Shown here: positions 334 through 44,142 of the stretch, one piece after another
Position numbering within the stretch: position 1 is the stretch's first letter
How the letters are laid out: the number at the start of each line of letters is the position of its first letter
Source: Minisyncoccota bacterium
Lineage (GTDB): Bacteria; Patescibacteriota; JACMRA01
Direction of reading: 5' to 3'
Assembly: GCA_043772945.1 (NCBI GenBank)
Contig: JAYVFR010000023.1
Span: 4,159 to 68,158 of the forward strand
DNA length: 64,000 bases
Notes under the pieces: generated by a model
Told to the model about the DNA's origin: nothing
The model's input: the letters and a program-made list of their open reading frames with translations, nothing else
Database searches by the model: none
Translations under genes and position numbers: made by a program

Positions 334-1581
334 TTACAATGGGTTTTTTGAGACTAAAACAATTTTTTTGTTGTCCCAATTAGTTTGAATTTGGGTATAG
401 ACGTTTTTAATATCATCTACGCTAACGGACTGGAGTTTATTAGTAAATTCATCATATTTTTCTAGATGATTGTAATTTAGTAAAGTGTTTTTACTAAAAT
501 TTAAGACAGTTTTTAGGTTGTCTTTGTCAACTAATTGCTTTTTTAGGATACTTTTTTTAAATTGTTCAAATCTATCAGCACGAAAAACTTTTGTGAAATC
601 ATTAAATACTTCTTTGGATTCTTTTTCTATAATTTCTATTAATTTAGCCTCGGCTTGAAAATTTACGATTAAGCTTTGAGTTGAAATATCGTAATAATAA
701 CTTATTCCATAAACCAGTTGTTTCTGATCTCTTAATTTATCGTACAATACCCCACCGTAATTTAAAAATAAGCTAGCAAATATTTGGCGGCTAGCTCTAT
801 TATCAAATTTAATGTCAAGCGGAATAATGTAAGTAGCATCAACATGCTCATGAGCAAATTCGTGTACGATTGGTAGAGTTTTGAAATCTAACAAAAGATT
901 TGGTGGGCAGTAGTCTATTGGTCTAAAATGTTCTATTTGGCGGTTTAGGTTATTTAAATAATGTTGAATTAGTTCCTTAGTGTATTCTAAATCAATGCCA
1001 CCACCAGCAATAGAAATAATGATTTGACTGGTGCTTAAATTTTCTTTTTGTAGTCTATAAAAGTCTTCTAAAATAGTTTGAGCAACTAATTCTGGATCAC
1101 CGAGAGTTTCATGTAATTCTAGACTCTCCTTAGTGTAAACTTGCTTATTAACATCAAAATAGAGTTTGTAGTTAGGATCTCCTCTGCGTTCACTAATTTC
1201 CCTTAATACTATTTCTTTCTCTCTATCTAAATCAATTTGATCAAAAGTAGGTTCAAAGGCCATTTCACAAAGCATTTCTAGCATTTTTTTAAAATCAGAT
1301 TTATGGCCGCTAGCTGTAAGGGCAAGTTTTAAACTGCTGGTAAAAGCATTTAAAGCAATAGATTCAGCATGTTCCCAATCTTTTAGCTCTTCATGATTCA
1401 TTTTTTTAGTACGGCTTGCAATGCAATGTTCAAGTAAATGTTTTTTACCACGGTCGTTTGCTTTTTCAAACCAGGAACCCCCAGAAGTGAAGTTAATTTC
1501 TAAACTTACTAATTCTCGTGGTATATTGTATGAAAATAGATGTACTCCAGGAGCTGGTTGCTGATAATTAAATTCAGACAC
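334..1581 (-). CDS. M16 (pitrilysin/insulinase) family zinc peptidase
   Basis: 415-aa ORF with an N-terminal HxxEH zinc motif (KKHLLEHCIASR). Length and layout fit M16 peptidases. Confidence 0.75.
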   Translation of the reverse strand: MSEFNYQQPAPGVHLFSYNIPRELVSLEINFTSGGSWFEKANDRGKKHLLEHCIASRTKKMNHEELKDWEHAESIALNAFTSSLKLALTASGHKSDFKKMLEMLCEMAFEPTFDQIDLDREKEIVLREISERRGDPNYKLYFDVNKQVYTKESLELHETLGDPELVAQTILEDFYRLQKENLSTSQIIISIAGGGIDLEYTKELIQHYLNNLNRQIEHFRPIDYCPPNLLLDFKTLPIVHEFAHEHVDATYIIPLDIKFDNRASRQIFASLFLNYGGVLYDKLRDQKQLVYGISYYYDISTQSLIVNFQAEAKLIEIIEKESKEVFNDFTKVFRADRFEQFKKSILKKQLVDKDNLKTVLNFSKNTLLNYNHLEKYDEFTNKLQSVSVDDIKNVYTQIQTNWDNKKIVLVSKNPL

Positions 1582-1603
1582 AGTAGTGATTTTTATGATT
1601 GAT

Positions 1604-2053
1604 TTATACTATAGGTAACATTTTCTGAGTAATGTTATGGTAATCTCCTTTTAATAGCTTTAACCTTGTATTCATACGGACATCTTTCTGACGATTTTGT
1701 GGAAGCATACGTTTAATTGCTTGATAAAGTACTTTAGTTGAATCCATCGTCACTTGATCTTTAGCTAAACGAACTTTCAAAGAACCTACACGACCATTAT
1801 CGTAACGAAAATATGGTTTCTTATCCATTTTTTTCCCTGTAAAAACTAGCTTGTCAGTATTAGTAATCATGACACATCCGCCCATATCGACCGAAGGCGT
1901 GTAGTCAGCTCTGTTTTTGCCCATTAATATTGATGCAACACGGGAAGCTATTCTGCCAACTGGCATACTAGAAGCGTCTATTGTGTACCATTCGCGATGT
2001 AATCCTAAAACTTTAGGTAGTGAGGAGCGAACGGAAGTATAAATTTGAGCCAT
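1604..2053 (-). CDS. rplM: 50S ribosomal protein L13
   Basis: 149 aa. Typical L13 N-terminus (REWYTIDASSMPVGRIASRVASILMGKNRADYTP) and length. Confidence 0.95.
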   Translation of the reverse strand: MAQIYTSVRSSLPKVLGLHREWYTIDASSMPVGRIASRVASILMGKNRADYTPSVDMGGCVMITNTDKLVFTGKKMDKKPYFRYDNGRVGSLKVRLAKDQVTMDSTKVLYQAIKRMLPQNRQKDVRMNTRLKLLKGDYHNITQKMLPIV

Positions 2054-2107
2054 GTTATTATATTATTTATTGTAATTTTATTTATTCAAAAGATATTTAG
2101 AGGATCA

Positions 2108-2464
2108 TTAATCAACCAATTTTACAAGGCTAGTGTCATATTGACTAAACTCGCGACTTAATTTGTATTGTTGAGTATATCCGCCATTTCTATCAGTATA
2201 TTTTGGAGCAATTGTTTCTACTAGAATACGGGCCGTATCTTCGCTAAGGAAAGGACGAATTTTACGATAGGCTAATTGAGTATTATCTCCAGCTCGTTTG
2301 CACAAGGTTACTAGTCGTTCAAATCTAGGGCGAAACCACTTAGCGCGAACAGTGAAAGTTTTAATTTGCCCGTTTTTGATTAGGCCTGTTGAAAGATCGA
2401 TCCAGAGGCGACGACGTTCTTCTTCAGTACGGTGAAATTTTTGGGATTTTTTAAGATGGCGCAT
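2108..2464 (-). CDS. rplQ: 50S ribosomal protein L17
   Basis: 118 aa. MRHLKKSQKFHRTEEERRRL... and RAKWFRPRFERLVT are L17 hallmarks. Confidence 0.95.
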   Translation of the reverse strand: MRHLKKSQKFHRTEEERRRLWIDLSTGLIKNGQIKTFTVRAKWFRPRFERLVTLCKRAGDNTQLAYRKIRPFLSEDTARILVETIAPKYTDRNGGYTQQYKLSREFSQYDTSLVKLVD

Positions 2465-2745
2465 ATTAAATTTTTTTGTCTAAAAATTATTGATTTTAAG
2501 GATCAGGTAGTTATAAGCTAGTGAAACAGATAATCAGGCTATATCAGATAGCCAACATTAAAAGGGTTAATTTGTCAATAGTTATGATTTTTGTCCATAA
2601 TTAGGATGGGTCTGACTAGTGGTTATTGGTTTCAATTTTGCTAGATGGCTAAAACCTAATGCATTGACACAAAGTCAACTTTCTGTTAGACGTGTGTATG
2701 AGCTATATTACATAGTTCCTCGTTTAATTTTTTTTAATTCATTTT

Positions 2746-3171
2746 ATGTCAAACACTTCTTTATACTCTATAATAAACAGCTGGAATTTGGATAAAATCC
2801 TACAGTTTACCAAACTAGAATATCCAGAAATCTCTAACGAAGCTTGGCTGGAAGCGCTAGGAGAATACCGAAACTACATATACTTAGGAGTGGTTTCTGG
2901 TAAATATTTGCAAATCCCAAATAAAGTTATGGATTATATTTGGCACTCGCACATTCTTCACACCAGTGATTATCAAGATTTTTGTTACACTGTTAATGAT
3001 GGTAAGTTAATCCATCATGAACCATCTCTGTATGTTGAAACAAAGTTTAATGATGATTTCAAATCACTGTCAGCAACTTCAAAAAAATATTTAGGTTACA
3101 ATGCCTTCGAAACTACTAAAAACTCTTTAGTAAAGAACCTTGTTTTTAGTTGCCCAGGTATCACGAATTAA
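2746..3171 (+). CDS. hypothetical protein with GRDP/DUF1399-like motif
   Basis: 141-aa ORF. The motif DYIWHSHILHTSDYQDFC resembles the W-H-x-H-x-L...Y..C signature of glycine-rich-domain-protein-like (DUF1399) families. Unverified. Confidence 0.5.
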   Translation: MSNTSLYSIINSWNLDKILQFTKLEYPEISNEAWLEALGEYRNYIYLGVVSGKYLQIPNKVMDYIWHSHILHTSDYQDFCYTVNDGKLIHHEPSLYVETKFNDDFKSLSATSKKYLGYNAFETTKNSLVKNLVFSCPGITN

Positions 3172-4363
3172 TTAATATGTATAAAGAGTTGCTTTTTGTT
3201 TTGGATAAACTGCAGTTTAAGTTTTGATTAAAAATTTTACTTAAATACCAATTCACCTCTGGTCTTTTGATTACAAAATGGCAAATATTTTCTGAAAATT
3301 GAAAGTCTAATTTGTAATTAATTTTACCGAAGTCAATGGTAAAATCACTTTTACAAGTGACGTAATATTCACTGTCGTCAAAAAAAACAGGTAGCTTTTC
3401 TTCTTTGTCGTCTACTACGTAATTAGTAATGCCTAGTAATTTGTAAATAAAATTCCATCTCTTTTTGCGAAAACCACTACCTTTATAGGTAGTTTTTTGC
3501 TTTGTGTTTAAAGGGCTTTTATTCTCAGATTTATACGAGCTTTTAACAACAACATAATTGAACTTTGATACTAGTTGCAAGGCTCTGGAGAAATTATATT
3601 CCACATCAAGTGTGTTAAGAGTGCAACATTCTAAAAATAAGCAAAGATTAATTATTTTTTCTTCTACATTAACACTTTCTAAAAGAGTTTTTTGTAAACT
3701 ATCTTGCTCGTAATCTAGTTCGTAACAAATCCCTTCAACTTTAGCCCATGTCCTAACTTTTTGTAGTCTAATTTGATTCATTCTAGGGCTTGCACAAATT
3801 GAAATATACTTTCCGAAAGCTTTTTGAGCTTTTAAATATTTAATCAAATCAATTAGGCAATGAGTTCCATAATCGTGCCCAATTTCCGCTACATTAATTT
3901 TATAACCTTTTTTAATTAAATCATCGCAAACTGTTATCAAATAATCACTAGTTTCTTTCTTGCTTAAAGTACTCACGCTTTCTGAATTCATTAATTCTTC
4001 TTCTACAGCATTAAAATACATATCGGCTCCTTCGGCAAAGTAGCTATATTTAAGTGGAATGAAATTATTAGCCTCAAGATTGTATATTAAATCTGCTAAC
4101 TGATTAGGTGTAAAAGTTTTGTATATATCATTGTTTGGCTTAACAACTGTATTTTGAGCTTTAGGTTTATATCTAGAATTTAGGTTTTTAAGACGATAAA
4201 TTAAGTCAATATTATCTGGAGTATTTTTAATAAAATATTTCCCATTAACTCTAGACAAAATTAATTTTTCACTTCCTTCTATGCTGCGCTTAATCCAATT
4301 AGTGACAGTAGATGGAGATACATCAAATCTTCTAGAAATTTCAATATTGCGTATAACGGTCAC
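3161..4363 (-). CDS. HTH-domain protein with uncharacterised C-terminal region
   Basis: 400 aa. The N-terminus ISRRFDVSPSTVTNWIKRS looks like a helix-turn-helix. The middle region (INVAEIGHDYGTHCLIDLIKYL...YISICAS) vaguely resembles a Rossmann/methyltransferase-like fold. It follows the coupling-protein-like gene on the same strand. Confidence 0.55.
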   Translation of the reverse strand: MTVIRNIEISRRFDVSPSTVTNWIKRSIEGSEKLILSRVNGKYFIKNTPDNIDLIYRLKNLNSRYKPKAQNTVVKPNNDIYKTFTPNQLADLIYNLEANNFIPLKYSYFAEGADMYFNAVEEELMNSESVSTLSKKETSDYLITVCDDLIKKGYKINVAEIGHDYGTHCLIDLIKYLKAQKAFGKYISICASPRMNQIRLQKVRTWAKVEGICYELDYEQDSLQKTLLESVNVEEKIINLCLFLECCTLNTLDVEYNFSRALQLVSKFNYVVVKSSYKSENKSPLNTKQKTTYKGSGFRKKRWNFIYKLLGITNYVVDDKEEKLPVFFDDSEYYVTCKSDFTIDFGKINYKLDFQFSENICHFVIKRPEVNWYLSKIFNQNLNCSLSKTKSNSLYILINS

Positions 4364-4368
4364 AACAA

Positions 4369-4836
4369 CTATCTAAAATTAAATTTACGCATCCAGTATT
4401 GAAATTTGTCTTCCATCTCCTCTTCGTAATTCAGAACTTGACTCATTTGTACGACAAACTCGCTAATTTGCGTATCGCTAGAGTCAATATAGTAGTAGCT
4501 GTAAGGACGAATTGGGTTGTTGCGTCTGATCATAATTTCAATTTGATCGTCTAAGTCATTCATACTCCAAGCGTAGCAATTAGACAAATCAATTGTTTCT
4601 TCATTAAAATTTAAAGTTTGCATGTCAGTGTCTAAAGTTAGCTGAGCAGTTTTGGCTGGGTTAACTAATATAAAAAGTATTACAGTAAAACAAGCAATTG
4701 GTGTTAGTAGACTTGTGATATCTTTGTATAAAAATATATATAAGAGTAATACGCTACTCAAACCGATAAAATAAGTTATATAAATGCGGTTGCGATTAAT
4801 CTGTAAGTACTTATCCGTGGCGGTTATTGTAATCAT
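4369..4836 (-). CDS. small membrane protein
   Basis: 155 aa with two N-terminal hydrophobic helices and an acidic C-terminal domain. Tightly packed between flanking minus-strand genes. Confidence 0.5.
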   Translation of the reverse strand: MITITATDKYLQINRNRIYITYFIGLSSVLLLYIFLYKDITSLLTPIACFTVILFILVNPAKTAQLTLDTDMQTLNFNEETIDLSNCYAWSMNDLDDQIEIMIRRNNPIRPYSYYYIDSSDTQISEFVVQMSQVLNYEEEMEDKFQYWMRKFNFR

Positions 4837-4935
4837 AAAATGATATAAGATTAGAGTTGTTTATTCAACACCAATTTTGACACACAATATATTATTTGTC
4901 TATATAAAAGCTAGTGTATGGTAATGATTTATTGT

Positions 4936-7650
4936 TTAAAAAAAGATTTTAGCACGATCTTTAATTTCTTGTTCAATTTCAGCTTTTGGTCTTCCGTATT
5001 TTTGCTTGACTCTTTCTAAAATCATTAATCTTTGTTCCTCAGCTTTTTTCATTAATTCACGATCTTTTTCGATCGCAAAGTATTCAGGGTAATTAGCCTG
5101 GATATTAAAAGGTGTAGTCCGCTGACCATTAACTAGACAAATAGCATTAAAAGTGTGAGCTTCCGGGTTTGCTATATCGGGTGGAGTTAGAGGAGTGAAT
5201 TCAGTTTCTAAATACTTGGCATCGTCAGCACTGCATCGAAAAATTAGTTTAGTTGCACAATTTGCCATAAGAGAGTCTTTTATGCGTTCACTACCATCAA
5301 CAATAACTTGTTTAACAAATTGGTGAGCTAAGTAGAAGCCAACTTTATACTTACGAATTTCCTCGAGGGCTTTAGGGATGGCATCGAACAAAAAGTTTTG
5401 CATCTCATCAATATAAACAAAATATGGAGGTCTATCAAGCGGGTTCACTCGCTCGGTTGTGCCATCAAGATTGTATTTCAAACCATCACTTCTCCCCATG
5501 CCAGCCATTAAAATACCCCCCACAATTACCATACCTATTAGATAGGCTGAAGTTTCACCAATTAAGCCCTTAGAAAGACTAACTAAAATAATTTTTTTGT
5601 TATCCATAGCTTGTCTAAAGTTTATTGAGCTTTTTTGCTGACCTATCATAGGTTTGATAAAATCATTAGTTACAAAAGGAGCGAGTTTACTTGTAATGTA
5701 AGGTATCATATTTTCAAGACTTGCTTCACCTCCAGCTTTCAAAGCTTCTTTTTCCCAAAAATCAATTACGTCCTGCTCGTCACACATTGCAAGTTTGAAT
5801 GATCGGTAATCATCGTCAGTCAAAATTTTAGGAATTTCTAGTAAAGTAGATCCGCTTTCAGGGTGGGACATTACAAGCCTCATGGCATTTTTCATGTAAT
5901 TTTCAAACATTGGTCCTCCTGTTTTTTTGAGATCATATAATTTATCCCAAATAGCAAAAAGTGTATCAATTACAAGAGTTTTTTGCTGGGGCTGTAAGGG
6001 GTCTGTTTCCATCATATTTAAAGCCAAAGGTCTATCTATCATTGATGGGCTGAAAACAATTACATCATCAATACGTTCAGGTGGAATTCTTCTTAAAATG
6101 TCATCGATGGCCTCACCGTGCGGATCTACTACGCAAGCTCCATTACCCATTTTGATGTCTTGTAAAATTACGTTGTTCATCGTTACAGTTTTTCCTGAAC
6201 CTGAACCGCCTAGCGAATAAATATGTCTAAACCTATCCTCGGTTTGTAAATATATGTCTTTGCGAACTCCACGAGCTTCTGCTCGCCCTAAGTATACATT
6301 ACCTTTACCTTCTTCAGGTATCTCTAAAGGTATAGGGGGTCTCCTAGCTAGTAACCATTTGATGGCGCTGGTTTGTACTTGCCATCCTGGAACATGCCAA
6401 AGAGAGTTAATTTCTTCAGTATTAATTATTCCTTTTTGATTTATATTCGGAGCTCTAAGAATGTAATCTTTAATGGCGTTATCAGTGTTGGTTTTGTTTT
6501 TTTTAAAGCTGTTGAAAGGTCTGATATCGTAAATTTGAAAAGCAGGTATAATATTATCCACAATTCTTTTGGCTTTGTCTTCAGTTTGAGCACTGGCAAC
6601 AACTCTTAATGTAAACAAAAAACCTGGTTTGGAAGCTTTTGCTTCAAGTTGTTTAACCATTTCAACTTGCTGGGGAGTTAATTGAATACTTTGCTTTTGA
6701 CCACTTAAATCTATTTCACGCTTATCTTTTTTATCAAATTTATCTTTCTCGTCTCCGCTATCGCTTTTACCTGATAATGCATCTGCAAATCCCTTAACAA
6801 TCGAACCTATAATTTTACCCCAGTTAATACCTTTATTGCCAGATTTTTTATTAAATAGCACTACTTCAGGGTTTTGTCCTTGTTGAATTTCAAGGGCAAA
6901 TTTTTGAATTTTAGTTTGCCAATCACCATTTTTAATTGGTGTTAAAATTAATTGTATAGAAGCCGATTCTTCTTTTTCTAAGCCACTAAGAGCGTTTGTT
7001 AAACTATTAAGAGGATCATTATCAATTAGCTTATAAGTCTTAAATGGAAGAGCTTGAGTTGTTGATAAAATCATTTCCTGAGCATACACTTGGGATTCAG
7101 GTTTAAAAAATGATGTTTTTTCGAGTCTCGTTATGTGGGCCTTAGGATAAATACTAATCAATTGCTTCTCCATTACTTCTGCAATTTGTTCACGACAGAT
7201 AAGCCAAAAACGGATTTGTTGATCAATAATTGTTATTTCTAAACTAAATCGTTCAAAATTTTTCTTTACCCAAGAGCTAGGGCTATTTTTGCTGTACTCT
7301 GACATTATGCTGTAAATCTGCTCGCCTACAGACAAGCTTTCTTTGGATTCTTTAGAACCAGCCGATCCGTATTCTTTTTGGATTTGTTCTGCACTTTCAC
7401 GCGGGACGCTAATTTCAAGGATGACGCTATCTTGCCACTGCTCTAATTTAATTTTTTGAAAAAATTTCTTTTTATATATTCTGAGACCAATAATTCCTCC
7501 AATTATAATGATTAATAAAAAAACAATTAAAAATATTATTAACGGTGTTAGATTACTTGTCCCAGAGTTACTTTGATTAGATAAACTTACCACTTTAGAG
7601 GTAATACCTGATACTGGTGGAGAAATTTGATATAAATCGTTACTAGCCAT
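4936..7650 (-). CDS. type IV secretion coupling-protein-like ATPase (VirD4/TraG/TraD-like)
   Basis: 904 aa with an N-terminal TM helix, Walker A GGSGSGKT and Walker B-like YFVYIDEMQNF. The C-terminal half has the layout of T4CP/TraM-recognition-domain ATPases. Confidence 0.65.
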   Translation of the reverse strand: MASNDLYQISPPVSGITSKVVSLSNQSNSGTSNLTPLIIFLIVFLLIIIIGGIIGLRIYKKKFFQKIKLEQWQDSVILEISVPRESAEQIQKEYGSAGSKESKESLSVGEQIYSIMSEYSKNSPSSWVKKNFERFSLEITIIDQQIRFWLICREQIAEVMEKQLISIYPKAHITRLEKTSFFKPESQVYAQEMILSTTQALPFKTYKLIDNDPLNSLTNALSGLEKEESASIQLILTPIKNGDWQTKIQKFALEIQQGQNPEVVLFNKKSGNKGINWGKIIGSIVKGFADALSGKSDSGDEKDKFDKKDKREIDLSGQKQSIQLTPQQVEMVKQLEAKASKPGFLFTLRVVASAQTEDKAKRIVDNIIPAFQIYDIRPFNSFKKNKTNTDNAIKDYILRAPNINQKGIINTEEINSLWHVPGWQVQTSAIKWLLARRPPIPLEIPEEGKGNVYLGRAEARGVRKDIYLQTEDRFRHIYSLGGSGSGKTVTMNNVILQDIKMGNGACVVDPHGEAIDDILRRIPPERIDDVIVFSPSMIDRPLALNMMETDPLQPQQKTLVIDTLFAIWDKLYDLKKTGGPMFENYMKNAMRLVMSHPESGSTLLEIPKILTDDDYRSFKLAMCDEQDVIDFWEKEALKAGGEASLENMIPYITSKLAPFVTNDFIKPMIGQQKSSINFRQAMDNKKIILVSLSKGLIGETSAYLIGMVIVGGILMAGMGRSDGLKYNLDGTTERVNPLDRPPYFVYIDEMQNFLFDAIPKALEEIRKYKVGFYLAHQFVKQVIVDGSERIKDSLMANCATKLIFRCSADDAKYLETEFTPLTPPDIANPEAHTFNAICLVNGQRTTPFNIQANYPEYFAIEKDRELMKKAEEQRLMILERVKQKYGRPKAEIEQEIKDRAKIFF

Positions 7651-39474: not shown

Positions 39475-39546
39475 ATCAACCTTTAAATAGGCTTCAGTTG
39501 TAAAATTTTTAATCCATATTTTTGCATTTTCATCAAAGTTAAAATT
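39475..39546 (-). pseudogene. relic of the N-terminal coding region (codons ~25-48) of an RM enzyme like the one at 40891-44142
   Basis: 66 of 72 nt are identical to 43999-44070. The minus strand translates to NFNFDENAKIWIKNFTTEAYLKVD, against NFDSDEDAKIWIKNFTTGAYLKVD in the intact gene. It is followed at once by a stop and has no start codon. Confidence 0.7.
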
Positions 39547-40888
39547 TTAAGATTCTTATAATCTGCCCCTCACCAAAACCTAAACTTTTAAGAAAACAAT
39601 ATTTAGCAATCCTCTCAAGAATAAAAGCTAAATTAAAAGGAGGTGCTTTTATTAGGTTGTTTTGATCTACAGCATCACCATGCATTAAAGCTTTTTTAAG
39701 TTTAAGAAAGTATTCCGTGTAATTTATTGTTAATTTTAAATGATTGTTTAAATAATCACTATTATCAATTAGATAAGTGAATTTTTCTTTCCATGTAGGT
39801 CTATTATCCGTCATTTTTAATAACTTCGGAGTACCATTTTTGCAATTCCTCCAGTGATTGCTTTTTACAAACTCATTATATAAAGGTAGTTTAATCACCA
39901 CATTTAAGTAGTTTTCAATACCTTTAAAATAATTTGAGAGTAAATTTTCATATCCATTGTTGTCTTTCAATATATTAGATAAGGTGTAGCCATATAAAGT
40001 CGCAAATTTACTCCTGTTATTCCACCAATTATTTATAATGAATTCAAATCTATTAATAGTTTTTATATCAAACAAACAATTAATAGATTTACAAGGACTA
40101 CACAAACCTACTGAGTTTTCGGAAATAATTTCGAAACAAGTTTCTCCAATGTAACCACTAGTTTCTCTTATGTAACAATTACTTTGAAAAGCAAAGGATA
40201 AAAATCTTTGAAAAAAAGCTTGCAACTCTTCAATATCTTGAATATCAAGAAACTTACCTCTAATATCCCGCCTTATCTCTAGGAAATACATCTCTTTTAC
40301 ATCTAAATTTACACAATTACCATTTAAAATATAATTACCCAGTCCAAGACCTTTGACATAGCTTTTAACTCTTAAAATATAATCACCCAGTCGAAATATA
40401 CACAATTCGTCCTTTTTTCTATCCGCAGTTATTTGGTAAAAATCTAAATTTCTTAAATTATCCTTAAAAACATTCATCAATTTTAATTTGCCTAAATCAG
40501 AAAAGAATGTTGAAAGGTGATCAATCTTTAAGTGAATCTTTTCAAAGCTATTTTGACTTCTAAAGTCAGAGCTACACCTCCAGAAAACTCCATATCTAAA
40601 ATTGCTATATCTATGATTAAATCCATGAGAACCAATATTCATTGACGAACTCCCAGCATAAAAATGGAAAGAATTACCACGAGTATCAAAGCCTGAAACA
40701 TAATTAAACTCAGGGATATTGCTATCTCCATAAAGATCTCTTGTTTGTAATCTATCTTTAGCCCAATCAAAAATCTCAATTTCAATTCGTCCATTTTCAC
40801 GAATGAGGTATGTGCCGTGTTTTTCTATATCTTTATCAGTGTTAAAGTAGAATTTACATGGAATTCTTTCACATTTTATTATTGACAT
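39539..40888 (-). CDS. uncharacterised 449-aa protein coupled to the RM gene (candidate defence partner)
   Basis: Starts 2 nt after the RM stop. No TM segment or signal peptide. The N-terminal beta-rich pattern (HGTYLIRENGRIEIEIFD...VSGFDTRGNSFHFY) and a C-terminal helix LKKALMHGD faintly recall ApeA/HEPN-type abortive-infection proteins. Unverified. Confidence 0.6.
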   Translation of the reverse strand: MSIIKCERIPCKFYFNTDKDIEKHGTYLIRENGRIEIEIFDWAKDRLQTRDLYGDSNIPEFNYVSGFDTRGNSFHFYAGSSSMNIGSHGFNHRYSNFRYGVFWRCSSDFRSQNSFEKIHLKIDHLSTFFSDLGKLKLMNVFKDNLRNLDFYQITADRKKDELCIFRLGDYILRVKSYVKGLGLGNYILNGNCVNLDVKEMYFLEIRRDIRGKFLDIQDIEELQAFFQRFLSFAFQSNCYIRETSGYIGETCFEIISENSVGLCSPCKSINCLFDIKTINRFEFIINNWWNNRSKFATLYGYTLSNILKDNNGYENLLSNYFKGIENYLNVVIKLPLYNEFVKSNHWRNCKNGTPKLLKMTDNRPTWKEKFTYLIDNSDYLNNHLKLTINYTEYFLKLKKALMHGDAVDQNNLIKAPPFNLAFILERIAKYCFLKSLGFGEGQIIRILKF

Positions 40889-40890
40889 AT

Positions 40891-43800
40891 TTACTTCAAA
40901 AACTTATCTAAAATACCTTGTTTTTTTTGTTTAATTAGCTTGTCAAATTCTTGAGAAGATAATCCATCCGTAAATAGCCTACCTTTAGAATTTTCTAAAG
41001 ATTCTATTTCTTTTACAATCTTCCCTTGGATTTCTAACGGCGGAACTGGGATTTTAACTTGGTTTTTTAGATATTCACTATTTAGACTTTTACCAAATAC
41101 TTTTGCCCCTACACTTTCAGGTAATAGAATATTTGAATTCGTGAATAATTGGTATAAATATTGATTGGTTAAGCTATCATTTTTTGGAATCAGTCCAGCT
41201 ATTGCCTCGTTTGTGTATAAATCTTGTCCTGCAATTGCTGTTTTACCAATAGAAAGTTTAAAGCTTACTAAAGTCGTATCCTTTGGAATTAATTTTACAT
41301 TTGACTTTGAAACACCTTCATCAGATATTTTTTCTTTAGTTGTTGTAATAATCTGACCTTTCATTTCTGAAATCGAAACCCATAAATTTTCACCTTCAAA
41401 ATATTGATTTATTGCACGCGATGGTGTACCACCAATTAAAACATCACAAGCTTCGCCTAATTTAATCATCGGGTATTTGCTTACAACCTCTACGCTTCCA
41501 ACGACTTTCTTTGGGGTCAAGCTAATAGCTTTGTTAAAGCTGGTTCCCGTGAAATCAAGAAGGTTTGTAAGTGAGTGATAACTGCAATGTTTAGCTAGGG
41601 TTTCTGGTAGTTCTTGAATTTGTTCATTTTTAATAAAATTCTGGCGAATATAATAACTAATTTTTGTTTCATCATTCCTGTCTTTGGGGTTAAACATTAT
41701 TGTGTTGATGTCATGAATAGTGTCTCCGCCATAATAGTGTATTCCTTCACTACCCTTTGATCCACTCCACTCATAACCTACAAACTTCTTTCGATCTTTG
41801 GTCTCAGTTGGGCATCTTACGATCAAAACTGGCTTTGGGTTTGAGAAAGCGAGAACAAAGTAATACAATTTGTCTTTTTCAATGTCTTGGAGATACGTGG
41901 TGAAATTACTGTTATATTTTCGTTTTTTATCAGTGCTTAACTTATCAAAACTCACTTTATATTCTGTAAATATTTCCGTTTCTAAAAGTTCTTTGGTTGG
42001 TTTAACGTTCAAAAGGGTTAAATAATCTTCATGGTTATAATCATTGTGCTCGCAGTAGTTTTTGATTAGAATATTATCTTCAAAATCTTCGTTTGTAATT
42101 TGATTATCAAAAAAACTTTCTACCCTATCCTTGTAATGTTCTTCGATTTCAGGTCTTTCTTTTTTTCGTTCTAGATATATAATTAATGTGTTTGTGCCAG
42201 TTTTACCAAAAGTACTTGGCGGAAGTTCTACAATTGAAATAAAATTAAAATATCTAAGGAGAATTTGGCGGGTTTGGATACTGACTTTATCAGTATTTGT
42301 TAGGATTGTATTTGGGATTACGATTCCTGCAATTCCACCTTTATTAAGGAGCTGCTTTGCTCGCTCTAAAAAGAAGTTTTGGATGTCGTCATTGGTATTT
42401 ATGTCTGAAACGGTTTTTGTTAGTTCATATTTATCACGCTCCTCGACTGGGATAGTGGTTAAAAACTCCTTAACAGCAAAGGGCGGATTGGCAATTAAAA
42501 TATCAAAACTCTCTTCCTTGATTTTAGGATTTTCAATTAATGCATCACTATCAACAATATTCACACCATCAAAACCATACATAAAAGCACTAACTTTAGC
42601 CACTTTAGCAAGTCTATCTTCTTTCTCTATACCATAGATTTCTTTATAAAAACTGGTGGGATTTTGCCCGTTATTTTTAGCAATTTGTTCAATTTGACTA
42701 GCATATTCGGTTAAAAAATGTCCCGACCCGCAGGCGTAATCAATTACCTTCAATGGTTCTATATTTTGTCTAACCATACTTTCAAGTGGAAGCGACATCA
42801 GGATAAATTTACAAATAGGAACTGGGGTAAAATACTGACCCTCCGACTGCTTGACCCCATTATCAAGGAAAAACTCGAACATATCTCCTAAAAATTGATT
42901 CTGCTCTTTAGTTTTGAGTCTCAATGACTGCCACATTTGAGTAACCTCTAAAATTATTTTTACGTTTTTATTAAAACCTTCTTTGTTTTTAACCCCAATA
43001 AATCCAAAATTATTATCGTTATAAAATTTTAACTTTTTAAATAGCTCTTCGATTGTGTTTCTAGTTGCGTTTTTCTTATTTTTATATGCCCAGAATGCTC
43101 CCTCGATCTCTCCATTACTAACATAAGTTATTTCTTGCTCTAAATATTTCTCCATTCCCACCTTGTAGAGTTCCTGAAGCCTATCTATAAAATCGTAATA
43201 ATTATCATAGGCTATTCCTTTCCAATAAAATTTTAAATCTGTTGGGTTCTGAGTTTCATCAACAATTTTACACAAAAATAGATTTACAAGTATTTCAAAA
43301 GCATTTTCTTTCCTAGATACATTATATTTTCGCAAAATTGTAGCAAATTGATTGTATTTGCCTTTTTTATCAGCGTTTGTTATAATTCTTGTGTCATCTG
43401 ACAGAGTATATTTATCTTTACCAATTTGGTAAGGTTGCACATTATCTTCAAAAATACCACTCTCTGTAAATTCTAAATTATAAGTTTGTTGCCACACTCT
43501 AAATCTTTCCTTTACATTTTTAGCTCTTAAATAGCTTTCAAGGTTAGTATTTTCATCTAATATTTTTTGATTATCTTTATGAGATATAACTTTTTGATCT
43601 ACTATTATTTGATTAAGCTCTGAATTTAGACTACAGGCGTATAAACAAACATATTTTACATCTTTTTCTTGCTCAATATAGCTAAATAGTTGATCGCCAT
43701 CGTTTAGTGTTTTCTTCCAAGCGTTCTCAAATTCTTTGCCAGCTGTTTTGCATTCAATTATCAAGAGTGGTTTATTATTTTGATCTCTCACAAACACATC

Positions 43801-44142
43801 TGCCCTACCACCGCTTGCACCATGACCTAATTTCCACTTAGGTTCCAACTCAATATGCTCGGGTTTGTACCCTTTTTCAAATAGACGATTAACGCATTCA
43901 AATACTACAAAGTTTTCATCACTACTAAAATTAGTTGTAAATTCACCGTTCACAATAAAACGCTGATCGGTTGGGTAAATTAACTTTTGATTATCAAAAT
44001 CAACCTTTAAATAGGCTCCAGTTGTAAAATTTTTAATCCATATTTTTGCATCTTCATCAGAATCGAAATTCAGGGTTTTTAGTAAATCGGGTAACGTTTT
44101 TTTGTTGAGCATACATAAAATTAATCCAAAATCCTCCGCCAT
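40891..44142 (-). CDS. single-chain restriction-modification-specificity enzyme (type IIG/IIB-like)
   Basis: 1083 aa in three parts. (1) N-terminal PD-(D/E)xK nuclease: D115 in ADVFV, then E130-C-K132 in LLIIECK. (2) Gamma-class N6-adenine methyltransferase motifs GQYFTP, VIDYACGSGHFL and, at aa 552-555, NPPF. (3) One C-terminal HsdS-type target-recognition domain (LGEACDVLIGGTPSR...NLWVSISEM...YTNEAIAGL). Confidence 0.85.
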   Translation of the reverse strand: MAEDFGLILCMLNKKTLPDLLKTLNFDSDEDAKIWIKNFTTGAYLKVDFDNQKLIYPTDQRFIVNGEFTTNFSSDENFVVFECVNRLFEKGYKPEHIELEPKWKLGHGASGGRADVFVRDQNNKPLLIIECKTAGKEFENAWKKTLNDGDQLFSYIEQEKDVKYVCLYACSLNSELNQIIVDQKVISHKDNQKILDENTNLESYLRAKNVKERFRVWQQTYNLEFTESGIFEDNVQPYQIGKDKYTLSDDTRIITNADKKGKYNQFATILRKYNVSRKENAFEILVNLFLCKIVDETQNPTDLKFYWKGIAYDNYYDFIDRLQELYKVGMEKYLEQEITYVSNGEIEGAFWAYKNKKNATRNTIEELFKKLKFYNDNNFGFIGVKNKEGFNKNVKIILEVTQMWQSLRLKTKEQNQFLGDMFEFFLDNGVKQSEGQYFTPVPICKFILMSLPLESMVRQNIEPLKVIDYACGSGHFLTEYASQIEQIAKNNGQNPTSFYKEIYGIEKEDRLAKVAKVSAFMYGFDGVNIVDSDALIENPKIKEESFDILIANPPFAVKEFLTTIPVEERDKYELTKTVSDINTNDDIQNFFLERAKQLLNKGGIAGIVIPNTILTNTDKVSIQTRQILLRYFNFISIVELPPSTFGKTGTNTLIIYLERKKERPEIEEHYKDRVESFFDNQITNEDFEDNILIKNYCEHNDYNHEDYLTLLNVKPTKELLETEIFTEYKVSFDKLSTDKKRKYNSNFTTYLQDIEKDKLYYFVLAFSNPKPVLIVRCPTETKDRKKFVGYEWSGSKGSEGIHYYGGDTIHDINTIMFNPKDRNDETKISYYIRQNFIKNEQIQELPETLAKHCSYHSLTNLLDFTGTSFNKAISLTPKKVVGSVEVVSKYPMIKLGEACDVLIGGTPSRAINQYFEGENLWVSISEMKGQIITTTKEKISDEGVSKSNVKLIPKDTTLVSFKLSIGKTAIAGQDLYTNEAIAGLIPKNDSLTNQYLYQLFTNSNILLPESVGAKVFGKSLNSEYLKNQVKIPVPPLEIQGKIVKEIESLENSKGRLFTDGLSSQEFDKLIKQKKQGILDKFLK
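43999..44070 (-). repeat. direct repeat partner of 39475-39546, inside the RM gene 5' region
   Basis: See the relic feature at 39475-39546. The first 53 nt differ at only one position. Confidence 0.9.

What the first reader, a model, noticed from the sequence alone, without database searches (positions are those of the whole stretch)
39539..40888. Uncharacterised 449-aa protein translationally coupled to the RM enzyme: candidate defence effector
The gene starts 2 nt after the RM stop, is co-oriented with it, and lies inside the repeat-bounded module. It has no TM segment, no signal peptide and no motif I can assign with confidence.

The N-terminal beta-strand-rich pattern (G-TYLIRENGRIEIEIFD, then VSGFDTRGNSFHFY) and a C-terminal helix LKKALMHGD are reminiscent of ApeA-type HEPN abortive-infection proteins. 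However, the position where HEPN has Arg is Lys here. RM genes commonly cluster with second-line defence effectors, so this pair may work as a two-layer system.
Basis: inference. Interest (0 to 1): 0.6.

Follow-up and report, generated by a model that had tools for sequence, protein, structure and literature searches.

The report
ApeA-type HEPN gene behind restriction enzyme
The unknown 449-residue gene behind the restriction enzyme is a very divergent relative of the ApeA-type RNA-cutting anti-phage proteins that often ride at the end of restriction operons. Its one unusual feature is that the arginine normally essential for RNA cutting has been stably replaced by lysine.

Summary
A 449-aa ORF (39539-40888, minus strand) starts 2 nt after the stop of a complete Type IIG restriction-modification gene (40891-44142). 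It lies inside a unit bracketed by 72-nt direct repeats.

Only two intact proteins of this clade exist in about 1.8 billion representatives. Homology follows transitively:
- Relatives found by exhaustive HMMER hit Pfam ApeA_NTD1 (80 bits), HEPN_Apea (46 bits) and PADLOC candidate PDC-S58 (1e-30).
- hhalign of this clade against canonical members gives 98.5% probability over 414 columns.

The catalytic Rx4H reads K398-K399-A-L-M-H403. All eight other members aligned at that column have Arg. Lys is derived, shared with the 58%-identical orthologue, and kept under purifying selection.

In 7 of 13 family loci an RM gene lies directly upstream. The RM types are unrelated, four loci carry decayed copies, and homologous Type IIG enzymes in a sister genus stand alone. 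The best reading is an autonomous, exchangeable second-layer HEPN effector. It is not an RM subunit or an obligate PrrC-type guard.

Whether the Lys-Lys site still cuts RNA is untested. This is ordinary in kind and modestly interesting in detail.

The parts
39539..40888 (-). P0001, 449 aa: divergent ApeA_NTD1 + HEPN_Apea-type protein (stop codon included)
   Evidence: ORF and translation. Orthologue P0003 is 58% identical. hhalign to the canonical clade gives 98.5% probability, E = 3.8e-15.
40034..40888 (-). N-terminal ~285-aa beta-rich domain (ApeA_NTD1-like), presumed sensor
   Evidence: The AF2 model has strands through residues 8-256 plus helix 216-234. Aligned relatives P0010, P0005 and P0007 hit Pfam PF18862 at 80.2, 28.7 and 26.6 bits. 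The sensor role is inference.
39539..40033 (-). C-terminal all-helical HEPN(Apea)-like domain, aa 286-449
   Evidence: AF2 places helices at 292-448, with pLDDT up to 90 around residues 370-410. P0004 (41% identical to P0001) hits PF18739 at 46.5 bits and P0003 at 19.4 bits. The P0001 half alone scores 14.3 bits and this is its only Pfam hit.
39680..39697 (-). Variant HEPN motif K398-K399-A-L-M-H403 in place of R-N-x3-H
   Evidence: Translation. The column has R in 8 of 8 other members, and H and G are invariant. Both orthologues use AAA AAA.
40889..40890 (-). 2-nt spacer between the RM stop (TAA) and the P0001 ATG; probable translational coupling
   Evidence: Sequence. No promoter or terminator signal above chance lies between the genes. 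Coupling itself is inference.
40891..44142 (-). P0002, 1083 aa: single-chain Type IIG restriction-modification enzyme (PD-ExK nuclease, gamma N6-adenine MTase, one TRD)
   Evidence: PADLOC REase_MTase_IIG, E = 0, 1196 bits. Pfam HSDR_N_2 at 88-141, N6_Mtase at 415-688 and Methylase_S at 892-1051. Motifs D..ECK, DYACGSGHF and NPPF are visible in the translation.
39475..39546 (.). Distal copy of the 72-nt direct repeat: an orphan relic of an RM N-terminus (reads NFNFDENAKIWIKNFTTEAYLKVD on the minus strand), abutting the P0001 stop
43999..44070 (.). Proximal copy of the 72-nt repeat, inside codons ~25-48 of the RM gene

Best explanation
P0001 is a highly divergent relative of the short (~450-470 aa) ApeA_NTD1 + HEPN_Apea proteins. 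This is the 'ApeA/BMEI1217' clade of Anantharaman et al. 2013, catalogued by PADLOC as the single-gene candidate PDC-S58.

It is an autonomous, exchangeable defence gene carried as the last gene of restriction-modification operons. Here it is co-transcribed, and probably translationally coupled, with a complete Type IIG enzyme.

Proposed mechanism:
1. The RM enzyme cuts unmodified incoming DNA as the first layer.
2. If infection proceeds, the beta-rich N-terminal domain senses an infection cue.
3. That cue licenses the C-terminal HEPN domains, which act as a dimer, to cleave RNA. By analogy with ApeA, the target would be tRNA anticodon loops or phage RNA.
4. Translation stops, giving abortive or static immunity.

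In this clade the catalytic Arg-Asn of Rx4H has become Lys-Lys and is maintained by purifying selection. I infer the site is still used, perhaps with lower basal activity or altered specificity.

Shown: gene structure, homology, motif state, derived status of Lys, purifying selection, and recurrent but non-specific RM linkage.

Inferred: co-translation, sensing, RNase activity, and the defence phenotype.
For: Homology chain:
- Exhaustive HMMER finds only 8 relatives.
- These relatives hit ApeA_NTD1 (P0010 80.2 bits; P0005 and P0007 above the gathering cutoff), HEPN_Apea (P0004 46.5 bits; P0009 24.9 bits) and PDC-S58 (P0010, E = 1.4e-30 over its full length).
- hhalign of the K-clade against 8 canonical members gives 98.5% probability, E = 3.8e-15, over 414 columns.
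- The AF2 model with the 13-sequence MSA (pLDDT 73, pTM 0.69) shows a beta-rich N-terminal half and a helical C-terminal half. [quoted passage not shown]

Constraint:
- P0001 and P0003 keep 25 of the 41 columns that are at least 80% conserved in the rest of the family (38 of them lie in P0001), among them E314, K333, H403, G404 and K434. Of the four such columns in the motif (398, 402-404) they keep H403 and G404 and differ at R398->K and A402->M/L; N399->K lies beside them.
- pN is 0.26 against a saturated pS of 0.80.
- The tree puts (P0001, P0003) as sister to R-bearing P0004 with 100/100 support, so Lys is derived and stable.

Linkage:
- An RM gene lies co-directionally and immediately upstream in 7 of 13 family loci: the window (IIG), L001 (BcgI-like), L002 and L021 (Type I), L019/L020 (Eco57I type), L004 (PLD-helicase plus Eco57I-type MTase) and L005 (Type I).

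Autonomy:
- The RM partners of the 58%-identical P0001 and P0003 share only 22% identity in the MTase core.
- Four loci lack an upstream RM gene within the sequence held (P0010/L003, P0014/L006-8, G182/L013 and P0007/L018).
- Homologous Type IIG enzymes in G035 stand alone between housekeeping genes.

Mechanistic analogy:
- ApeA is a ligand-activated HEPN tRNA anticodon nuclease, or a cutter of phage RNA, that acts as a single gene (10.64898/2026.01.26.701840 and 10.64898/2026.03.20.713152).
Against: - The defining catalytic Arg is absent, and so is the adjacent Asn. R-to-A mutation abolishes ApeA defence, and I found no data showing that Lys can substitute.
- P0001 passes no curated threshold in Pfam, NCBIfam, PHROGs or PADLOC.
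- Foldseek found no significant structural neighbour in the PDB or BFVD. HMM searches of PDB sequences also found nothing.
- The experimentally characterised ApeA proteins are ~600 aa with a helical N-terminal and Mid domain, not ApeA_NTD1. Function is therefore transferred only through the HEPN domain.
- The family sample is small: 13 loci, several of them short contigs.
Confidence: 0.55

Rival explanations
1. Pseudo-enzyme. The Lys-Lys clade has lost RNase chemistry but is kept as a non-catalytic RNA- or ligand-binding protein. It could act as a regulator, as a translation blocker by binding alone, or as a dominant-negative partner or decoy of ApeA-type proteins.
For: Two of the three residues usually considered catalytic in Rx4H (the R and the following N/H/D) are replaced in both known intact members. 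HEPN families lacking the motif are proposed to be RNA-binding only (PMC3710099). R-to-A kills ApeA defence. The gene is nonetheless under purifying selection, so it has some function.
Against: His403, Gly404 and the rest of the motif helix are retained (10 of 11 residues at 395-405 are identical between the orthologues), and Lys keeps the positive charge. No second ApeA-type gene exists in this genome for a decoy to act on. I found no precedent for a non-catalytic ApeA.
Confidence: 0.25
2. PrrC-type guard. P0001 binds the Type IIG enzyme, is held silent by it, and fires its RNase when a phage anti-restriction factor disables the enzyme.
For: The two genes are separated by 2 nt, which is compatible with co-translational assembly. 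An RM gene lies directly upstream in 7 of 13 family loci. PrrC-EcoprrI is the precedent, and the same logic was proposed for RM-linked HEPN genes (PMC3710099).
Against: The partner RM systems are of unrelated types (IIG, IIB-like, Type I, Eco57I type, PLD-helicase). The partners of the 58%-identical P0001 and P0003 share only 22% identity in the MTase core, which makes a conserved interface unlikely. Some members have no RM neighbour. ApeA and PDC-S58 are catalogued as single-gene systems. P0001 has no ATPase regulatory domain like that of PrrC.
Confidence: 0.12
3. Accessory subunit or regulator of the RM enzyme itself, affecting specificity, control of expression or DNA handling, with no RNA-directed role.
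For: It rests only on the tight operon position and on the repeat-bounded unit that contains both genes.
Against: P0002 is a self-contained Type IIG enzyme with its own nuclease, MTase and TRD. Its homologues in G035 lack any partner. P0001 is homologous along its full length to ApeA_NTD1-HEPN proteins, which also occur away from RM genes.
Confidence: 0.03

Closest known systems
Short ApeA_NTD1 + HEPN_Apea proteins ('ApeA/BMEI1217' HEPN clade, Anantharaman et al. 2013, PMC3710099; Pfam PF18862 + PF18739; PADLOC candidate PDC-S58)
   Same: Same length class (449 against 439-475 aa). Same two-domain order, a beta-rich N-terminal ~285 aa followed by a helical HEPN domain. Full-length profile-profile homology. 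Same habit of sitting at the 3' end of R-M operons.
   Different: Only ~17-22% identical to canonical members, and below every curated HMM threshold. The catalytic R-N of Rx4H is K-K, whereas the family is listed as 'Rx4-6H conserved: yes'. The family is described only computationally, and I found no experimental test of PDC-S58.
ApeA anti-phage system (Gao et al. 2020; Ec1ApeA/Ec2ApeA; Juozapaitis et al. 2026, 10.64898/2026.01.26.701840; Drobysheva et al. 2026, 10.64898/2026.03.20.713152)
   Same: C-terminal Apea-type HEPN domain with a single motif per chain, so dimerisation is needed. Single-gene sensor-effector logic. It is the likely model for how P0001 works: ligand- or RNA-triggered cleavage of tRNA anticodon loops or phage RNA.
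   Different: ApeA is ~600 aa with helical N-terminal and Mid domains and forms decamers or dodecamers. P0001 is 449 aa with a beta-rich N-terminal domain. No sequence or fold match to any PDB entry was obtained. ApeA needs the Arg (R521A and R502A are dead), and P0001 has Lys. ApeA is not described as RM-linked.
PrrC anticodon nuclease in the EcoprrI Type Ic R-M locus (and RloC)
   Same: A HEPN-type RNase gene embedded in an R-M operon, giving a conceptual two-layer defence.
   Different: PrrC and RloC carry an N-terminal ABC-ATPase regulatory domain, and PrrC is specifically tied to Type Ic hsd genes and physically masked by them. P0001 has no ATPase domain, and its family pairs with many unrelated RM types or with none.

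Membership tests
ApeA_NTD1 + HEPN_Apea short proteins (PF18862 + PF18739; PDC-S58) | N-terminal ~300-aa, mostly beta-strand ApeA_NTD1 domain | tested here: met
   Met only indirectly. P0001 itself has no PF18862 hit. Its aligned relatives score 80.2, 28.7 and 26.6 bits. hhalign of the K-clade against the canonical clade covers residues 12-447 at 98.5% probability. AF2 shows a beta-rich stretch at 8-256.
ApeA_NTD1 + HEPN_Apea short proteins (PF18862 + PF18739; PDC-S58) | C-terminal Apea-type HEPN domain recognised by the Pfam model at its gathering score | tested here: inconclusive
   The P0001 C-terminal half scores 14.3 bits and P0003 scores 19.4 bits, both under the gathering cutoff of 24.4, though PF18739 is the only or best hit. 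Sister P0004 (48% identical to P0001 over the HEPN half) scores 46.5 bits.
ApeA_NTD1 + HEPN_Apea short proteins (PF18862 + PF18739; PDC-S58) | Conserved catalytic Rx4-6H motif | tested here: not met
   The motif is K398-K-A-L-M-H403. The Arg column is R in 8 of 8 other members, and His and Gly are kept.
ApeA_NTD1 + HEPN_Apea short proteins (PF18862 + PF18739; PDC-S58) | Frequent embedding in R-M operons or defence islands | tested here: met
   An RM gene lies directly upstream in 7 of 13 loci. Other defence genes are nearby: PDC-S57, a Dsr1-like protein and an AAA_15/21 ATPase.
ApeA (Gao 2020 / Ec1-Ec4ApeA) | ~600-aa architecture with helical N-terminal and Mid domains forming the ligand pocket with HEPN | tested here: not met
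   P0001 is 449 aa with a beta-rich N-terminal half. The ApeA architecture is as described. There is no PDB sequence or fold hit, and no PADLOC hit to any named system, only to the candidate PDC-S58 and Cas13-ApeA models.
ApeA (Gao 2020 / Ec1-Ec4ApeA) | HEPN-dependent tRNA anticodon or phage RNA cleavage, and a decameric ring | not testable with these tools
   This needs biochemistry or cryo-EM.
PrrC/RloC anticodon nucleases | N-terminal ABC-type ATPase fused to HEPN | tested here: not met
   No ATPase or P-loop family hit in Pfam, NCBIfam or PADLOC. The N-terminal half is beta-rich.
Type IIG restriction-modification enzyme (for the upstream gene P0002) | Single chain with PD-(D/E)xK nuclease, gamma-class N6-adenine MTase motifs and a TRD | tested here: met
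   PADLOC REase_MTase_IIG, 1196 bits. Pfam HSDR_N_2, N6_Mtase and Methylase_S. Motifs are visible in the translation.

The most novel reading that the evidence does not exclude
The Lys-Lys-x3-His site may not be a crippled HEPN site. It could be a working alternative catalytic or gating configuration, fixed in a clade of RM-riding ApeA_NTD1 proteins from small-genome bacteria. The structurally unmatched beta-rich N-terminal domain would be a new kind of sensor that reads a generic by-product of restriction, for example short DNA breakdown products, by analogy with the deoxydinucleotide activation of Ec2ApeA. That would explain why the gene attaches to any type of RM enzyme without needing a specific protein interface.
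Probability: 0.1. Interest if true: 0.65.

Novelty: new variant of a known kind. Interest (0 to 1): 0.35.

Why it matters
- It gives a name and a testable function to a gene that every standard annotation library leaves blank, in a small-genome (Patescibacteria-type) bacterium whose defence repertoire is poorly known.
- It adds independent loci to the old computational observation that ApeA-type HEPN genes ride on RM operons. The evidence here shows the attachment is promiscuous in RM type rather than tied to a partner.
- The stably inherited Lys-Lys replacement of the catalytic Arg-Asn is a natural experiment on what the HEPN active site tolerates. If the protein still cuts RNA, the Rx4-6H rule used to call HEPN domains active or inactive is too strict.

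Tried and rejected
**Searches that found nothing**
- Direct scans of P0001 against Pfam, NCBIfam, PHROGs and PADLOC found nothing above threshold.
- phmmer and profile searches against PDB sequences found nothing. I tried full-length P0001, A3, P0014 and the HEPN-only profile A5.
- Foldseek of the pLDDT-73 model against the PDB and BFVD gave no hit with E <= 0.001 and a meaningful TM-score. The best PDB TM-score was <= 0.15. There were weak PilZ-barrel hits (MrkH, PP4397, VCA0042; probability <= 0.47), which I do not trust.
- The first AF2 run on the 2-sequence MSA was useless (pLDDT 42).
- Word-indexed homologue searches returned only 1-6 proteins each.
- Pattern scans of viral contigs and JGI metagenome contigs found no relatives. 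A3 was too divergent for pattern design.
- tblastn against the plasmid and phage collections found no match.
- The promoter/terminator scan gave no signal above shuffles.
- A literature search for Arg-to-Lys HEPN variants found nothing.

**Readings considered and rejected**
- *An RM specificity or control subunit.* The RM enzyme is self-contained, and its homologues stand alone.
- *A PrrC/RloC member.* P0001 has no ATPase domain.
- *A recent inactivating mutation at codon 398.* The same AAA-AAA codons occur in an orthologue that is 42% diverged, under purifying selection.
- *A relocated compensating Arg.* R292 and R363 are conserved in the K-clade and are mostly not Arg elsewhere. Without model coordinates I could not test their proximity to the active site.
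Full report
**Observation.** The upstream minus-strand ORF (40891..44142, 1083 aa) ends in TAA, two bases follow, and then comes the ATG. No segment is hydrophobic enough for a membrane helix or signal peptide; the highest 19-residue Kyte-Doolittle mean is 1.07. A 72-nt direct repeat (92% identical) lies at 39475-39546, beginning at this gene's stop codon. Its other copy lies at 43999-44070, inside codons ~25-48 of the RM gene. These are the only two copies in the 0.95-Mb genome. The downstream copy reads as an orphan fragment of an RM N-terminus. The gene is real: a 449-aa orthologue (P0003) aligns without gaps at 58% identity. Non-synonymous divergence is 0.26, while synonymous sites are saturated at 0.80.

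**The upstream gene.** P0002 is a complete single-chain Type IIG restriction-modification enzyme.
- PADLOC REase_MTase_IIG scores 1196 bits.
- Pfam finds HSDR_N_2 (88-141), N6_Mtase (415-688) and one Methylase_S TRD (892-1051).
- The D...ECK nuclease motif and the DYACGSGHF and NPPF methylase motifs are visible in the translation.

**What P0001 is.** No library recognises it directly.
- Pfam, NCBIfam and PHROGs give nothing, and PADLOC gives only PDC-S58 at E = 0.0078.
- The family is extremely sparse. There is one homologue among 5.8 billion clusters. An exhaustive HMMER pass over 1.84 billion representatives found eight hits, most of them fragments.

Those relatives supply the identification.
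- P0004 is the C-terminal half of a sister protein (41% identical to P0001). It hits Pfam HEPN_Apea at 46.5 bits against a gathering cutoff of 24.4.
- P0010 is full length. It hits ApeA_NTD1 at 80.2 bits and PADLOC PDC-S58 at E = 1.4e-30 over its whole length.
- P0005 and P0007 hit ApeA_NTD1 above the cutoff. P0003 hits HEPN_Apea at 19.4 bits.
- A profile of P0001+P0003, compared by hhalign with a profile of eight canonical members, gives 98.5% probability (E = 3.8e-15) over 414 columns, residues 12-447.
- The isolated C-terminal half of P0001 has HEPN_Apea as its only Pfam hit (14.3 bits, below the cutoff).

With the 13-sequence alignment, AlphaFold2 gives pLDDT 73 and pTM 0.69. The model has a beta-rich N-terminal part (strands through 8-256) and an all-helical C-terminal part (292-448), with the highest confidence around the motif helix. 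[quoted passage not shown]

**The active site.** Relatives carry the canonical HEPN motif: IRNALAHGD in P0004 and P0009, and LRHSIAHGG, VRNAIAHGG and similar in P0010-P0015. P0001 has LKKALMHGD and P0003 has LKKALLHGD at the same place.
- In the column audit, all eight other members with residues there have Arg.
- His403 and Gly404 are invariant.
- The K-clade keeps 25 of the 41 columns that are at least 80% conserved in the rest of the family (38 of them lie in P0001), among them E314, K333 and K434. Of the four such columns in the motif (398, 402-404) it keeps H403 and G404 and differs at R398->K and A402->M/L, and N399->K lies beside them.
- Both orthologues encode the pair as AAA AAA.
- A maximum-likelihood tree groups (P0004,(P0001,P0003)) with 100/100 support, and the K pair with 95/95, nested among R-bearing lineages. 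Lys is therefore derived and has persisted through ~42% protein divergence.
- P0001 contains 25 Arg elsewhere, so this is not general Arg avoidance.

Whether Lys can do the job of the HEPN Arg is unknown to me. R-to-A mutants of ApeA are dead, and a literature search for Arg-to-Lys HEPN variants found nothing.

**Genomic context.** I examined 13 loci carrying family members. In seven, an RM gene lies co-directionally and immediately upstream.

| Locus | RM gene(s) immediately upstream | Gap or note |
|---|---|---|
| Window | Type IIG | 2 nt |
| L001 | T5orf172/PDC-S57, then BcgI-like nuclease-MTase plus S | 6 nt |
| L002 | Type I HsdS-HsdR-DUF45 | family gene reduced to a 39-aa stub |
| L021 | Type I HsdM...HsdS-HsdR-YgjP | family gene reduced to a 71-aa stub, followed by IS66 |
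| L019/L020 | Eco57I/TaqI_C-type enzyme | genes overlap |
| L004 | PLD-helicase plus Eco57I-type MTase | followed by an AAA_15/21 ATPase |
| L005 | Type I RM plus a Dsr1-like protein | 2 nt |

- Four loci (L003, L006-8, L013 and L018) show no RM gene immediately upstream in the sequence held. L011 and L017 are too short to tell.
- Four loci carry decayed copies: the two stubs above, an IS1595-truncated copy in L018, and an in-frame TAG in L022. This fits a costly, dispensable gene.
- The RM partners are not one family. P0002 and the L001 methylase share only 22% identity over 223 residues, and their specificity parts share nothing. Yet the attached ApeA-like proteins are 58% identical.

**The window's own lineage.**
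- The genome (948 kb, 81% complete) has a single copy.
- Only 4 of 401 sampled genomes of the phylum have any family member, and none is in the same family.
- Homologues of the Type IIG enzyme (37% identical) occur at two loci in a sister genus, G035. At both they stand alone between housekeeping genes, with no ApeA-like partner.
- In the window, the module sits between a GH113 hydrolase with a small secreted protein on one side and an ABC transporter on the other. This is not a large defence island.

**How it most likely works.** The anatomy is that of a single-chain sensor-effector: an N-terminal domain of unknown ligand and a C-terminal HEPN domain that must dimerise to form an active site.
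- The experimentally studied ApeA proteins act alone. A pocket ligand activates them: 5'-phosphorylated deoxydinucleotides for Ec2ApeA and probably an RNA structure for Ec1ApeA. They then cut tRNA anticodon loops or phage RNA.
- Anantharaman et al. noted in 2013 that ApeA/BMEI1217 genes are embedded in R-M operons. They proposed second-line, PrrC-like logic for RM-linked HEPN genes.
- My evidence favours an autonomous add-on that is co-expressed and co-mobilised with whatever RM system it lands behind. A partner-specific guard is less likely, because the partners are unrelated and dispensable.
- Co-transcription and translational coupling follow only from the 2-nt gap and the absence of intervening signals.
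- RNase activity, the trigger and the phenotype are all inferred. The Lys-Lys site leaves a substantial chance (about one in four) that this clade is non-catalytic.

**Comparison with known systems and novelty.** In architecture, length and context, P0001 belongs with the short ApeA_NTD1 + HEPN_Apea proteins, which PADLOC catalogues as candidate PDC-S58. I found that candidate only as a table entry, with no experimental test. It fails the family's defining Rx4-6H feature, so I file it as a variant rather than a plain member. It shares only the HEPN domain type with the characterised ~600-aa ApeA, whose N-terminal and Mid domains are helical. No sequence or fold match to any solved structure was obtained. 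It is not PrrC/RloC-like, because it has no ATPase domain. Notes from other windows of this scan report many ApeA-like genes behind RM genes, and Lys-for-Arg HEPN variants in other families. I treat these notes as unchecked leads. They agree that the RM linkage is commonplace, and this lowers the novelty.

**Verdict.** The gene is a very rare, unannotated branch of a computationally known defence-gene family in its usual place behind a restriction enzyme. The one feature worth a bench test is the conserved Lys-Lys replacement in the HEPN catalytic motif.

Noticed in passing
window 39475-39546 and 43999-44070: 72-nt direct repeats (92% identical) bracket a 4524-bp unit made of the RM body plus P0001. 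The distal copy is an orphan piece of an RM N-terminus (NFNFDENAKIWIKNFTTEAYLKVD) that begins exactly at the P0001 stop codon. This suggests cassette replacement or tandem duplication by recombination within the RM 5' end. There are only two copies in the genome.
   Followed up: partly
L002:10001-10120 and L021:8001-8216: Two independent Type I RM operons (HsdM-DUF3800-...-HsdS-HsdR-YgjP/DUF45) end in a truncated stub of this gene family, 39 aa and 71 aa. In L021 an IS66 transposase follows the stub. These are decayed copies of the same add-on gene.
   Followed up: partly
L022:418-1872: An R-bearing family member (motif RNALAH) is interrupted by a single in-frame TAG between its N-terminal and HEPN halves. 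The gene caller had split it into two proteins.
   Followed up: partly
L018:1659-3357: A family member is truncated at 296 aa, directly followed by an IS1595-type transposase gene.
   Followed up: no
L030 (G035:C63) 428-6604: In a sister genus, a solo Type IIG RM gene (37% identical to P0002) is inserted between an aconitase-family large-subunit gene, which is fused to a HAD hydrolase domain, and the matching small-subunit (Aconitase_C) gene.
   Followed up: no
G000:C4:37982-38467: A second TRD-like stretch in the window's own genome matches P0002 residues 887-1049 at 35% identity. It lies in a 772-aa frame that contains one internal TAA, so it may be a broken RM or S gene.
   Followed up: no
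L005:5212-7998: A 928-aa protein that matches the C-terminal two thirds of PADLOC Dsr1 (E = 6e-27), but has no Pfam domain, sits between a Type I RM operon and the ApeA-like gene.
   Followed up: no
L001:206-799: A T5orf172/PDC-S57 gene (E = 3e-66) precedes the BcgI-like RM genes and P0003. A serine-recombinase C-terminal fragment lies at the contig start, which suggests a mobile defence cassette.
   Followed up: no
P0001 residues ~8-256 (AF2 model m9942cca4d51b): The only recurring Foldseek hits for the N-terminal half are weak and non-significant. They are PilZ-type c-di-GMP-binding barrels (MrkH, PP4397, VCA0042; probability 0.2-0.47, TM <= 0.27 by target). This is a lead on a nucleotide-binding sensor at best.
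   Followed up: no
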